Assembly: GCA_964016885.1 (NCBI GenBank)
Contig: OZ024745.1
Span: forward strand, 133,610,001-133,674,000
Direction: 5' to 3'
From: Eledone cirrhosa
Lineage: Eukaryota
Length of the DNA: 64,000 bases
In this document: in pieces, positions 1,672 through 59,600 of the stretch
Layout: each line of letters begins with the position of its first letter
Position numbering within the stretch: position 1 is the stretch's first letter
The notes under the pieces: model-generated
What the model was told of the DNA's origin: nothing
The model's input: only the letters and a program-made list of their open reading frames with translations
Database searches by the model: none
Made by a program: the position numbers and the translations under genes

Positions 1672-1890
1672 AGTGGTGACAGTCAAGTTTGCAATTTTTA
1701 ACACAGTTGAAAATTGCAAACTTGACTGTCACCACTGAATATGAACCTGAAGATTGCGAAAGCATGAAAGTACTTGTTCAATTAACATTTAATATTCTAC
1801 CATACTATTTCATTATAATATCATTATAATCTTAAAGGATTGTAAATAAAACGAGTAAATCAGACAAAGTTGGAATTCCTTTTATTAATA
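1672..1890 (+). mobile_element. Short hammerhead-bearing element, family A (probable PLE pLTR/3' end), with 5' fold-back hairpin, ending in (TA)n
   Basis: Hairpin at 1672-1736, then a hammerhead, then an AT-rich tail closely matching 14341-14528. Confidence 0.75.
1742..1780 (+). ncRNA. Minimal type I hammerhead ribozyme (family A)
   Basis: tgaac-CTGAAGA-t tgc gaaa gca t-GAAA-gtac-TT-gttca: stem I tgaac/gttca, conserved core, GAAA-capped stem II, palindromic gtac loop III as in PLE minimal hammerheads. Confidence 0.8.
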
Positions 1891-1972
1891 TATATATATA
1901 TATATATGTGTGTGTGTGTGTGCCTGTGAGTGTGTGTGTGAGTGTGTGTGTGTATATATATATATATATATA

Positions 1973-2040
1973 TATTGAAATAACAGATTAAAGTTTAAGC
2001 AAAGAAACTCTGCTTACATCCTTAACGGGTGTCTTCACAT
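1973..2040 (-). mobile_element. Degenerate fragment of the hammerhead element seen at 19300-19370
   Basis: Reverse complement gtgaagacacccgttaaggatgtaagcagagtttctttgcttaaactttaatctgttatttcaata aligns to 19305-19370; sits within (TA)n. Confidence 0.7.
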
Positions 2041-3179
2041 TTATTATTGTTACTATATATATATATATATATATATGTGTGTGTGTGTGTGTGTGTGTGT
2101 GTGTGTATATATATTCACTTATCAATGTCAATCTTGTTTTTAGTTTCTCAACTCTAAGAAGTACTAGATATTCCCCCAGTCTGCCATTGTTTATGAGCTT
2201 TATACGGACGCTTAAATTGATTAAATACATGATAATAAATAAATAAATATTTGTGTGTGAGTGTGTTTATGCTTGTATCTCAGTGTGTATGCGCAAATTG
2301 TGTCAGATAAATATACATGAACAGGCCAGTGTAACAATATGCAAATTAGAATATGCGTTTGCGTGTTTCAGTGACTGCGTGACTATCCGCTCATTTGCCT
2401 GCCTTTCTACTAATATGCAAGTAAATTTGTATATGGTTATATGAATAAAAGATTTTTAATTTCTAAAATGATTTTAATTAAATTCATAATTTTTTTCTCT
2501 AAAATCAATTGCCTTTATCTTCCAGCATGACAGTATACAGTGGAAATGATTAATCATACATTAACCGACCGACATAATTTACTATCATTGTTATAAGTCT
2601 TGAATGTTCACTGGAGAGATAAGACCAAACTCCACCAGTGGAATAGTTGATTAATATCCTTAAATGAAAAAAAAATATTTATAACTTGGAAAGAGAAAGA
2701 ATCATATATATATATATATATATATATATATATATATATATATATATATATATATATATATACATATATATATATATATGTATGTATGTCCGTGTGTGTA
2801 TATATATGTCTGTATATATATATATATATATATATATATATATAAATGAAAATATATATATATATATATATATATATATATAGAGAGAGAGAGAGAGAGA
2901 GAGAGAGAGCGAGAGAGAGAGAGAGAGAGAGAGATAACCTAAGTGATATACCATGATGTACACTTTTAATCATTATATCTGAATATATATGTTGCAGCAA
3001 CTTTTAAACATTTTTCAAATCTCAATTACAAAGAATGAAATTGAATGAAAACACAAACTAAGAATAAGCACAAAATTACATGGAGAGAAACCAGGTGAAG
3101 GCAGTGCTGCAGCATGGCCGTCTTCATTATCAGTAAGAACCATTAAAGAACACAGCTTAATAGGGAAATAGCTAACTTC

Positions 3180-3680
3180 TCCGCCTCTGAGACTCAGCCG
3201 ACAAGATTGAGAATACATTGTCCCGGAGGCAAAGGAGACACCCTGGAACAGCCACTCCACCTCGCGGGGCTCGCACCTGTGGGTGGCCAATTCTGCCCTG
3301 ATAGCAGTGAGTAGGGATATGGTCCGGGGCGCAAGAATGTCGGATTCATTCCACTGGCACAGGCTCTACCACAAACCTATCCGAGGGCGGCCAATACTGG
3401 GACAGTTTGCCCCAGATCTGTGGCTAGTAGCCGAACGCACCAGTTGCCCCTTCAATATGTCTCACTTCTTGTGGTATCCAAGATGAGGGGGCCTACCCCG
3501 CGAGACGAGAAGATAATGATGCCGTCTGGCCTTTTGACGTCCTCTCAGACCAGCCAGCCCTGCTGGGTCGAGCTGTAAAAGGAAGCCTGCGCTGTCCGGG
3601 CCGTGCTTCATGGACAAGTTGAGCGCAGCATGGCGTTGGAGTCGTCCAGTAGTGTAAGGGCATGACAGTGGGGGAGACCG
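3180..3680 (-). mobile_element. CRE-clade non-LTR retrotransposon, decayed restriction-like endonuclease/C-terminus
   Basis: Frameshifted minus-strand translation DVKRPDGIIIFS..GPLILDTT, ILAPRTISLLTAIRAELATHRCEPREVEWLFQGVSFA / LRDNVFSILSA matches the CRE-type DGKRPDG and WLFQRISLAxxRGNAFSIL motifs. Confidence 0.7.
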
Positions 3681-3766
3681 AAAGAACTATGAATGAAAGG
3701 AATAAAGTACTGGGGTAAAAGAGAAAAGGAGAAAGTAAGAAAAGAGAAAGAGAAATACGTAAATAA

Positions 3767-3958
3767 ATAATTGTTTGTACTTTTGGCACAAGACCAGCAA
3801 TTACCCAGTACATTACTGGAACCCTATTTTATCGAGCCCGTAAGGATGAAAGGCAAAGTTAACCTCGGTGGGATTTGAACTCAGAAAGGCAAGGGCCGTA
3901 ACTCTATGCGTCAAAGCATGGCGTTCGACCCTCTACCGATACTGCTAATCCATCGCCC
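3767..3958 (-). mobile_element. tRNA-derived SINE (main family)
   Basis: Reverse complement has A-box (tagcagtatcggtaga), B-box (gagttcaaatcc), central gcctttcatccttacggg..cgataaaat and 3' cttgtgccaaaagt; at least 6 copies in the window. Confidence 0.9.
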
Positions 3959-56945: not shown

Positions 56946-57449
56946 CAGGTGTCTGAAATTCAGTTACACTCTAGTTTAGATTTATCACTTTAGACTTAAT
57001 TTTAGAATTATTTTCTTACGTTCAGTGGCTACTTCTACGTATCTGGGTGTAAATACACTGTACGTAAAGTGATGTTGTTTCTCCTCATTGACACAGCGCA
57101 GAGCCGGTAAATATGAAGGGTGTGTACTAACAACTTGGTGCGTACTAACAACGTGTACTAACAACTTTCTCTTCTGTAGTCCTTTTAGCTCATCATATCT
57201 ATATAAAATTATATAACGAGAACAGAAATAATTTTCTCGTCACGAATTCGGAATTATAATTGAAACTACTAAATCTTCGACCAAACCTGATTCAATCGAT
57301 TTAGCCAACTGCTCTATAATTATTAGTATATATTTATATATGTGTATACAAGTATGTCTGTGTATGTTTACTTATGAACAAAAATGAATTCATAACTTAC
57401 GGAATATTGTTAAGTTGATGAAGCAGAATATGTTATCATCTTCTCCAAC

Positions 57450-57830
57450 ATCTGATCAATATTATACTCTACTTTTGATATGTTCTCATGATTGGTATGT
57501 AAGGAAGGACACATCATTCTTCTTCATTGAAGGACATATTGTTCAAGATGGTTCTAGCTGAGTAAGGTGGGTAGGAGATATTGATTAAATTCTCATGGGA
57601 TATTGTGTACGTTCTTCCGCCGCCAATAATCTCAAAATTTCATTATACTTACACACTCAACTGTTCTGAAAATGTGTTTCTCTATGATTGGAAATAATAC
57701 TATTTGTAGATTTCTCTCTCATCTGGCCTTCGGTCTGTGTTATACTGGAAAATTGTGTAATTCCATTAGCTTTCACCTCTGTATCTGAACTATGACATCA
57801 ATTATTAGTTTGCTCTCTAAGGAGTTATTG
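57450..57830 (-). mobile_element. Possible decayed Penelope-type thumb/linker remnant
   Basis: Fragments FRTVECVS, LINISYP and VLPYIP in mixed frames. Confidence 0.3.
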
Positions 57831-58722
57831 AGATCAATTTATTTCGTTTGAGATACAGTAAATTTCTTTCTCTGCAGGATACCGTTAAGTGAAATATTTA
57901 CACGTGAATGTATACTTATTTATCCTACGGTGAAGAATTCTATATTTGTACATATGAAACAAAAGTCGTGATGCGCATTCAAAGGCGTTTATGAGCGCCT
58001 ATATCTATTAGGAAGCGTTTGTTTTTTTCTCAGACGAGCTAATATAATATGCGGCACATGATCAATAAATTTATATGAAGTTACATTGCAGGATAGAGCA
58101 TATCCCTTCGTCTTCAGCAACTAGGTTCAATTCCCGACATTATTATAGTCTATCTACTTTCTTTCATTTTTAGTCATCGTCAAGGAAACAAATACAGGTA
58201 GCATACTAGAGTTACTTTACTCTGGCATGTATTCTAACATCTATACTTAAAACATTGTTACTGCGCTTGATCATGATTATTCCATAAGGTTGCTTAAGTG
58301 TAAGGACATATAACATTGAGGGAAGTGAATGATTTGTAACTGTAATTCAGTTTCAATTTACAGGATGTGTATTCCTATCAATGGTTAATAGTTATTATTT
58401 GTGGTAATATTTCCATTCTAGGATATATTCCATCATAACAGCACATTCTGCTTCCCAGCATCATGTATTAAACTGTGAATTAAAGCCGCGAATATTTGGA
58501 ACGAAAGAATATTTGACTATTGACTATGCAGATAATCCAAGCGTAAAAATCATCAATGTAGAGTAAACAAATCTTAAATAGACCTTGGAGCAGATGTTAC
58601 GTTAAGAGAACATTCGGACAGAATAGATATGGATAGAGTCTAGTAGATTTAAGGATATGTTAGAACTGATTTAAGGATATGTTAGAACTGATGAAGATAA
58701 ACGTTCATTATAAACTAACCTT

Positions 58723-58903
58723 GGTGGATTGGCAGTATCGGTAGAGGGTCGGACGCCATGCTTTCCAGCATAGTTACGTCCCTTTACAATCTGAGTTCAA
58801 ATCCCGCCGAGGTTGACTTTGTCTTTCATCCTTACGGGGTCGATAAAATAAAGTACCAGTAATGCACTGGGTAATTGCTGGCCTTGTGCCTAAAGTAGAA
58901 ACA
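58723..58903 (+). mobile_element. tRNA-derived SINE with perfect 16-bp target-site duplication
   Basis: attataaactaacctt at 58707-58722 and 58904-58919. Confidence 0.95.
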
Positions 58904-59339
58904 ATTATAAACTAACCTTAATCTTTTTAACTCAAGTATCAGATGGTATCAGATGCAAGCAAATTTCCTTCGTCGACGTCAAGCTTACCGCACTTACTGA
59001 AACAGTGCTCACTGGGCTACTAGTTACACGTGTATTTGTTAACTAAATGACTTCTCTCTCTCTCTCTCTCTCTCTCTCTCTCTCTCTCTCTCATATATAT
59101 ATATATATTTTTTTTTCAATCATATATTTTTTTATTTGTTTGACCCGAATTACTTGGTCGTTTCTATAGCTGTGCGGCTAATGGTTTAACCATCGTCTCA
59201 GTGTGTTTGGCCTTTTAACGTTCGTTAGAATTATTGAGCGCTTGCCACACATCTCGGAAGTTGTTTTTCGCTAATTTCCAAAGCCGAAATACGATTCTCG
59301 CTAATTTATATATATATATATATATATATATATATATAT

Positions 59340-59600
59340 ACGTGGGAAAGTAAAAAATCGGAGAATAGACCGTTAAAACATGTTATTTTAAATAAACATG
59401 TTTTAACGGTCTATTCTCCGATTTTTTACTTTCCCACGTGCTTACGCTCTGCTAACTCTCTAGCCCACTAAATATTAACACTTCGAATATTTAATACTGC
59501 CGGCACTAGTATCGAGCACCTTTGGCATACGCTACTTGGCAAATAACTATATGTATCACCTATCCCTCCTTTTTCTCTCTTTCTCGATACGTAAATACTA
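59340..59600 (+). mobile_element. TA-flanked element with 100-bp fold-back palindrome (59340-59439)
   Basis: acgtgggaaagtaaaaaatcggagaatagaccgttaaaacatgtt / aacatgttttaacggtctattctccgattttttactttcccacgt. Confidence 0.75.

What the first reader, a model, noticed from the sequence alone, without database searches (positions are those of the whole stretch)
1672..59439. Eight long fold-back palindromes, all abutting TA-rich microsatellite tracts
Seen: inverted repeats at 1672-1736, 11123-11337, 14138-14528, 14941-15238, 17711-17795, 19554-19700, 39583-39699 and 59340-59439, mostly with loops of only a few nt. In most, one arm continues into extra unique sequence, so they are asymmetric rather than MITE-like terminal inverted repeats. 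Established: PLE insertions often carry an inverted 5'-truncated pLTR. Inference: the cDNA snaps back and copies itself before the insertion is resolved, and this is a routine outcome here rather than an occasional one.
Basis: partly seen in the sequence, partly recalled or inferred. Interest (0 to 1): 0.75.

Follow-up and report, generated by a model that had tools for sequence, protein, structure and literature searches.

The report
Head-to-head Penelope ends, twin-primed
These eight hairpins are real, back-to-back ends of abundant Penelope-type jumping genes sitting in TA repeats, a known layout; their anatomy across hundreds of sister copies suggests they likely form when both cut DNA strands copy the same RNA and the two copies then join, rather than by one copy folding back on itself.

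Summary
All eight palindromes are real and TA-adjacent beyond chance. They belong to seven repeat families. In the two counted there are thousands of copies. Four families are tied to Penelope-like (PLE) RT/GIY-YIG ORFs; three are assigned by structure only. The 'extra unique' arm is the known PLE tail.

The layout is routine: 75 of 90 consecutive family-C copies are hairpins. One arm ends at a fixed tailless site and the other carries the tail (64 of 68 family-A pairs). Tips pile up at a predicted transcription start in three families, with a minor class at the hammerhead cut site.

Simple snap-back predicts the tailed arm always owns the loop. Instead ownership is 35:29 (A) and 14:14 (cut-site class), and the tailless arm is longer in 43 vs 26 C copies, with no age trend. 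The likely mechanism is twin-primed reverse transcription from both nicked strands, usually on one RNA, followed by head-to-head joining. The main rival is snap-back plus later loop inversion.

The layout is published; I found no paper with this mechanism. This scan reached the same reading earlier on other DNA of this genome (unreviewed notes).

The parts
1672..1887 (+). Family A unit: 31-nt inverted arm, tip ~1703-1705, tailless sense arm to (TA)n; hammerhead core at 1747
11127..11398 (+). Family B: palindrome 11127-11333 (tip 11230, about 45 nt downstream of the family's usual 5' end), 61-nt tail 11334-11398
14088..14523 (.). Family A full hairpin: tail on the left arm (~14088-14136), tip 14333 at the predicted start, tailless right arm; hammerhead cores at 14375(+) and 14291(-)
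14944..15364 (+). Family H: tailless inverted arm 14944-15149, which includes the 120-nt spacer; tailed sense arm 15150-15364 (staggered arms)
17482..17809 (-). Family F: tailed arm 17482-17751 with hammerhead core at 17669(-); tip 17752-17755; short arm that jumps ~145 nt to the family's tailless end
19495..19697 (.). Family D: 59-nt tail on the left (19495-19553), palindrome 19558-19696, tip 19627; the family's hammerhead lies further 5' and is absent from this copy
39585..39776 (+). Family C: palindrome 39585-39697, tip 39640-39642 at the predicted start, 77-nt tail to 39776
39813..39936 (-). Second, diverged family-C-type hairpin in opposite orientation whose tailed arm lacks its first ~70 nt
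59341..59598 (+). Family G (Hydra-type parent): palindrome 59341-59438, 159-nt tail to 59598
50009..50270 (-). Second family-F copy with no adjacent inverted arm; hammerhead core at 50193(-)
51682..53136 (-). Broken PLE ORF remnant: RT fragment (YRDD), then GIY-YIG fragment (Pfam E 0.0023, below cut-off)

Best explanation
The palindromes are head-to-head insertions of the terminal repeat unit (pLTR) of several Penelope-like retrotransposon families, likely made when both nicked strands of a TA-rich target prime reverse transcription on the element's RNA and the two cDNAs are then joined at their 3' ends. Shown: head-to-head geometry; one arm ending at a fixed tailless site and the other carrying the tail; usually the same haplotype in both arms; either arm able to reach further 5'; tips piled up at a fixed base in three families. 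Inferred steps: (1) the GIY-YIG endonuclease nicks both strands in (TA)n; (2) one 3'-OH primes at the tail end and the other at the internal site, mostly on one RNA, the trailing RT displacing the first cDNA (PLE RT lacking RNase H is recalled, not tested), occasionally on two RNAs; (3) both cDNAs run to the RNA 5' end, which is the pLTR transcription start, the hammerhead cut, or a random stop; (4) the two cDNA 3' ends anneal through 2-5 nt and prime each other, which also supplies second-strand synthesis. In family A the two ends (..CAACTGT-3') would pair over 5 nt around a central T-T mismatch, giving either loop base with equal odds.
For: One tail per insertion: 64 of 68 full-length A pairs (90 loci read, 22 with a short arm set aside) and 28 of 30 cut-site pairs. 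Fixed tailless/tail ends in all seven families. Loop owner tail:tailless is 35:29, and 17:14 among pairs with <=2 differences; 14:14 in the cut-site class. C: tailless arm longer 43, tailed longer 26, equal 6; 17 vs 8 at offsets >=8 nt; no correlation with divergence (rho -0.12, P 0.30). D: tailless longer 5, tailed longer 2 at >=30 nt. Extreme staggers with short shared arms, e.g. L142 (450-nt offset, 48 nt shared) and L238. Arms mostly share a template: diagnostic-site discordance 4.4% vs 38% for random pairing; 4 of 68 pairs differ at >=2 diagnostic sites. Arms are not being homogenised: 169 differences vs 17 shared non-majority alleles in C. Tips: 66 of 100 A arms start at -5..+10; 582 identical perfect tips genome-wide; TATA-like box at -33/-30/-31 and CCAAT boxes upstream in A, B, C. 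In vitro, a Poseidon PLE protein nicks and extends both strands, starts RT at the two sites bounding the tail and is modelled as a dimer (PMC11167929).
Against: Crossing-over between the arms after insertion would also randomise loop ownership and turn nested arms into staggered ones; divergence-based age is too coarse to exclude a fast flip. Central deletions in palindromes could create stagger. Long-arm A pairs lean nested (6 vs 3 by my reading), as do F (9 vs 3) and H (9 vs 4), where the query favoured long tailed arms. The excess of 'tailless longer' in C is only marginal (43 vs 26). The transcription start is predicted from motifs and pile-up only. The cut-site junction has a 3-nt microhomology that could favour it without ribozyme cleavage. 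PMC11167929 found ribozyme cleavage dispensable in vitro and no RNA reads at the cut. Some short arms (9-35 nt, variable ends) fit snap-back better. No ORF link was found for F and H and only a weak one for B.
Confidence: 0.62

Rival explanations
1. cDNA snap-back: the tail-primed cDNA folds back at its 3' end, is copied to the internal site, is cut or joined there, and later inversions or deletions at the centre scramble which arm owns the loop.
For: Explains arm concordance, one tail per insertion, the nested lean of long A, F and H pairs, short variable arms and reiterated filler at tips. The cut-site junction is a feasible 3-bp, 5-nt-loop hairpin. Craig et al. attribute the tail to EN-mediated resolution (PMC8557442).
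Against: Predicts 100% tail-owned loops at birth; seen 35:29, 17:14 in the least diverged, and 14:14. A 1-nt loop is sterically unfavourable for an intramolecular primer (established knowledge). Large staggers with ~50 nt of shared arm, little arm homogenisation and 4 of 68 pairs with different haplotypes all need extra events.
Confidence: 0.25
2. Self-priming on an antisense pLTR transcript (Arkhipova et al. 2013) produces the head-to-head palindrome.
For: Published interpretation of PLE junction palindromes (PMC3846280 Discussion); TA-rich flanks could drive antisense transcription.
Against: Does not predict tips at the sense start site or at the sense-strand ribozyme cut, nor exactly one tail per insertion.
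Confidence: 0.07
3. The hairpin is part of a fixed master element (MITE, foldback element or hairpin RNA) that is copied as a unit.
For: 582 identical tips in A; fixed outer ends.
Against: Junctions differ copy to copy in C; centres are dispersed over hundreds of nt in D, F, G, H; subfamily variants are mirrored in both arms; the unit is the pLTR of RT-encoding elements; outer ends are unequal.
Confidence: 0.04
4. Sequencing or assembly fold-back chimeras.
For: Palindromes are a known chimera type; the 8.7-kb, 99.9%-identical dimer was not checked against reads.
Against: Arm mismatches, family-specific fixed ends, and the same joints in raw Illumina reads of another study.
Confidence: 0.02

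Closest known systems
Insertion units of canonical EN+ Penelope-like elements (Craig et al. 2021, PMC8557442; Arkhipova et al. 2013, PMC3846280)
   Same: Inverted 5'-truncated copy at the 5' end, optional tail at one end, hammerhead in the pLTR, TATA/Inr in the pLTR, (TA)n targets, palindromic junctions.
   Different: Here thousands of ORF-less pLTR hairpins per family counted; tails up to 159 nt rather than 30-40; tips fixed at a predicted start (A, B, C) or at the ribozyme cut; either arm may own the loop.
Poseidon PAc in vitro TPRT (Frangieh et al. 2024, PMC11167929)
   Same: Both strands nicked and extended, AT-rich target, two RT start sites that bound the tail, predicted dimer.
   Different: That study did not address inverted copies or how the cDNAs are joined, and found ribozyme cleavage dispensable; different clade.
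L1 twin priming (recalled, not read here)
   Same: Two target nicks prime on one RNA; head-to-head join by microhomology; some C copies (L294, L159, L264) have almost non-overlapping arms like an L1 inversion.
   Different: L1 gives an inversion with little duplication; here both cDNAs usually run to the RNA 5' end, giving a full inverted duplication from a fixed internal site.
Non-LTR retrozymes (bioRxiv 10.64898/2026.07.22.740005)
   Same: Short, non-coding, hammerhead-bearing, PLE pLTR-derived.
   Different: Defined as tandem head-to-tail arrays; these are dispersed head-to-head pairs, and four window families show no canonical core.

Membership tests
EN+ Penelope-like elements | Unit is the pLTR of an RT + GIY-YIG ORF | tested here: met
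   A: L383 ORF with RVT_1 (E 2.9e-6, below cut-off) and GIY-YIG (E 3.2e-6, above cut-off). G: L146 flanked by EN and RT ORFs. C: sense EN hits upstream in L064, L068, L083. D: L213, L234.
EN+ Penelope-like elements | Same, for families B, F, H | tested here: inconclusive
   B: weak sense EN hits 0.7-1 kb upstream (L057, L042); F, H: no clear link. Assigned by tail and inverted-arm anatomy only.
EN+ Penelope-like elements | Optional tail at one end | tested here: met
   All seven families: tails of 38 (A), 61, 77, 59, 83, 159, 125 nt.
EN+ Penelope-like elements | Type I hammerhead motif in the pLTR | tested here: inconclusive
   Core with stems I and II in A and F and D; none found in the window copies of B, C, G, H. 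Folding energies were no better than shuffles. Activity untested.
EN+ Penelope-like elements | (TA)n insertion bias | tested here: met
   8 of 8 in the window; (TA)>=3 at 34 of 43 tailless and 34 of 43 tail ends in the C loci whose two ends could be parsed, 43 of 90.
Neptune clade (family A parent) | GxKF, DKG, CX2-5CxxC linker, C-terminal GIY-YIG with internal cysteines | tested here: met
   GLKF, DKG, YLDD, CNDNRCGTC, CIKCPNC, YVGQT.
Neptune clade (family A parent) | RT phylogenetic placement (versus Nematis) | not tested
   No tree was built.
Hydra clade (family G parent) | RWK, DKT, CxCX5C linker, CxxC beside the catalytic E | tested here: met
   L146: RWK, DKT, CNCRDRGRC, CDLC, against the definition in PMC8557442 section 11.
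MITE / foldback DNA transposon | Fixed symmetric TIRs with a constant interior and a TA duplication | tested here: not met
   Unequal ends, variable junctions, RT parents.
Non-LTR retrozyme | At least two tandem units, each with a hammerhead | tested here: not met
   In the A loci, 49 head-to-head pairs and 1 tail-to-tail pair; at most one direct-orientation pair 2.2 kb apart among 82 loci apart from full-length elements (L360).

The most novel reading that the evidence does not exclude
Penelope-like elements integrate by obligate double TPRT: two target 3' ends copy one RNA from the two sites that bound the tail, and the two cDNA ends prime each other, so that the inverted pLTR, the one-sided tail and second-strand synthesis are one event. 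The genome then records RNA 5' ends as hairpin tips, including a class made from hammerhead-cleaved RNA (62 loci against 7 and 14 in flanking controls), up to 8.7-kb dimers of full-length elements.
Probability: 0.5. Interest if true: 0.7.

Novelty: new member of a known kind. Interest (0 to 1): 0.48.

Why it matters
How PLEs make their inverted repeats and tails is stated as open in PMC8557442, and PMC11167929 leaves the steps after first-strand synthesis unvalidated. The copy statistics here give sharp predictions for the existing in vitro system: one tail per insertion, random loop ownership, tips at RNA 5' ends. They also suggest that the PLE hammerhead does cut templates in the germ line. 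Practically, thousands of such hairpins are likely to be mis-annotated as MITEs or miRNA precursors and are potential sources of double-stranded RNA and fragile sites.

Tried and rejected
Rfam scan: only sub-threshold matches among the 150 of 220 rows shown, nearly all miRNA models on hairpins and TA repeats; no ribozyme family listed. Folding of three hammerhead regions: z about 0, uninformative. Sequencing runs: no RNA holder listed, so start sites and expression were not tested. Target-site duplication search: no non-simple direct repeat >=12 nt in 43 parsed C loci; one ~28-nt flank duplication was seen by eye in L080. mis-scored tails by aligning into TA runs and is superseded. (48 pairs after dropping duplicate L025; 9.2% discordance) includes best-hit loci biased towards the query, so one search is used instead. 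output was flooded by TA matches and cut; redone. A genome-wide count of family-C junctions was not obtained. Whether insertions lengthen or create the TA tracts could not be tested: no relatives or empty sites were available. Literature: six searches found no paper proposing twin priming for PLE inverted ends; subscription papers (e.g. [quoted passage not shown]
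Full report
Observation. A hairpin scan recovered seven of the eight palindromes with loops of 1-10 nt; self-BLAST recovered the eighth, 14944-15235, with a spacer of about 120 nt. After masking simple repeats the window holds 7 tight hairpins against 0 in 100 dinucleotide shuffles, and 8 of 8 lie within 25 nt of a (TA)>=4 run at one end (random mean 1.2, maximum 6 in 5000). The window is C5:133.61-133.67 Mb of a 3.0-Gb genome, probably an octopus (recalled SINE resemblance, not tested). 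Raw Illumina reads from another study with the same species label show strand-switch joints at the family-C tip and 3260 reads passing from the tailless end into (AT)n, so the layout is not a library artefact.

What they are. The eight belong to seven families: A (1672 and 14143), B, C, D, F, G, H. A 28-nt A motif has 5871 exact matches and a 26-nt C motif 3728; the other families were sampled only by their 30 best loci. Family A is the pLTR of a full element with a 476-aa upstream ORF and a 775-aa RT + GIY-YIG ORF bearing Neptune-type motifs. G lies between an EN and an RT ORF with the Hydra-clade motifs RWK, DKT, CxCX5C and CxxC. C and D have sense EN hits upstream; B has weak hits; F and H have none. 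Hammerhead cores occur in A, F and D. In each family arms end at two fixed sites, a tailless site and a tail end 38-159 nt further on.

How routine. Of 90 consecutive C copies on contig C1 (90 of the first 100 listed), 75 have an adjacent inverted arm, and 66 of the 75 end at +57..+63. In A, 49 head-to-head pairs were found against 1 tail-to-tail pair.

Where the tips lie. In A, 66 of 100 consecutive motif-bearing arms start at -5..+10 of one base, and 582 loci share an identical 25-nt tip, against 1534 matches to the promoter-attached form. In C, 63 of 75 hairpins have an arm starting at -6..+9; B 5' ends cluster within about 7 nt in most truncated copies. In A, B and C that base lies 30-33 nt downstream of a TATA-like box, with CCAAT boxes further up. 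I read it as the transcription start; that is predicted, with no RNA evidence. D, F, G and H tips are dispersed. A second A class has its tip at the predicted hammerhead cut (+72): 62 loci, against 7 and 14 in similar patterns shifted about 10 nt up- and downstream. The controls are not matched for microhomology. One member is an 8.7-kb head-to-head dimer of two full-length elements, one ending with the tail and one without (a single case, not checked against reads).

Mechanism tests. A snap-back strand copies the first cDNA, so it cannot gain the tail, and the tailed arm must own all extra 5' sequence. In 90 consecutive perfect-tip A loci (90 of the first 100 listed), 22 had a short arm and were set aside. 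Of the other 68, 64 had one tailed and one tailless arm, and the loop base belonged to the tailed arm in 35 and to the tailless arm in 29 (17:14 in pairs with <=2 differences). The cut-site class gave 28 of 30 and 14:14. In C the tailless arm reached further 5' in 43, the tailed arm in 26, equal in 6, with no trend with divergence. D gave 5 vs 2 at offsets >=30 nt; G L142 has a 450-nt stagger on 48 shared nt; the window's H spacer belongs to the tailless arm. Against this reading, long pairs lean nested in A (6 vs 3, my reading), F (9 vs 3) and H (9 vs 4), the last two with queries favouring long tailed arms. Arms mostly share one template (diagnostic discordance 27 of 608 sites, 4.4%, against 38% for random pairing and 1.8% at other sites), but 4 of 68 pairs differ at two or more diagnostic sites. 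Arms are not being homogenised (C: 169 differences, 17 shared non-majority alleles in 3081 sites).

Best explanation (0.62). Both nicked target strands prime cDNA on the pLTR RNA at the two sites bounding the tail, usually on one RNA; both cDNAs run to its 5' end; their 3' ends anneal by a few bases and extend on each other. The nicking and priming steps match the in vitro behaviour of a Poseidon PLE (PMC11167929, parts 1-2 of 4 read); displacement, joining and mutual priming are inferred. The main rival (0.25) is snap-back followed by inversion or deletion at the centre, which copy ages here cannot exclude and which probably accounts for the short variable arms. Antisense self-priming (PMC3846280, passages and Discussion read) does not predict tips at sense 5' ends.

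Comparison and novelty. The layout is the published PLE one, so the finding is a new member of a known kind. Six literature searches found no paper with a twin-priming model for PLE inverted ends; subscription papers and supplements were not seen. Other papers seen: PMC8557442 (passages and section 11), PMC4209133 (passages), PMC13282606 (passages), the retrozyme preprint (part 1 of 5). Earlier unreviewed notes of this scan reach the same reading on other DNA of this genome and the cut-site idea in another genome. My reading was formed before the first look-up; these notes are not independent support. Interest 0.48.

Noticed in passing
L383/L384 (G000:C1:~21872015-21880700): 8.7-kb head-to-head dimer of two full-length family-A elements, each with an upstream 476-aa ORF overlapping a 775-aa RT/EN ORF; tip at the hammerhead cut; central 4.2 kb 99.9% palindromic. 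The tail leads straight into the ORF1 start, so the short unit is the element's 5' UTR.
   Followed up: partly
families D, F, H, B near their 5' ends: AGATGGC-like words (YY1-site-like, recalled) at or near clusters of 5' ends in D and F; also present in H; B has AGATGTG at +1.
   Followed up: no
window 18975-19494 and 1975-2029: Another hammerhead-bearing repeat family (variant core CAGAAGA at 19305) directly beside family D.
   Followed up: no
window 13715-13830 (-): Hammerhead-like core CTGACGA with a long stem II at 13810(-), next to a (TA)n run; family not traced.
   Followed up: no
many loci, e.g. L035, L039, L202, L334, L357: Different PLE families insert into each other's terminal TA runs, building nested clusters.
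   Followed up: no
window 29518-38290; 6142-7656; 4420-5385: Large satellites: 21-bp unit x418, 37-bp unit x41, and a TTG-rich array.
   Followed up: no
window 19840-20450 and 21600-23470; 3' pieces at 10754-11002, 48502-48822: Decayed non-LTR retrotransposon fragments ending in (ACAT)n or (AC)n.
   Followed up: no
window 3763-3960, 18588-18688, 26228-26421, 40619-40818, 58722-58908, 62444-62640: Six copies of a ~190-nt SINE-like repeat.
   Followed up: no
L080: About 28-nt flank duplication either side of a family-C hairpin, each copy next to a TA run, as expected from two staggered nicks.
   Followed up: partly
runs X5, X6, X7: Families A and C are present in contigs of runs labelled as other organisms, so they predate or cross species boundaries.
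   Followed up: no
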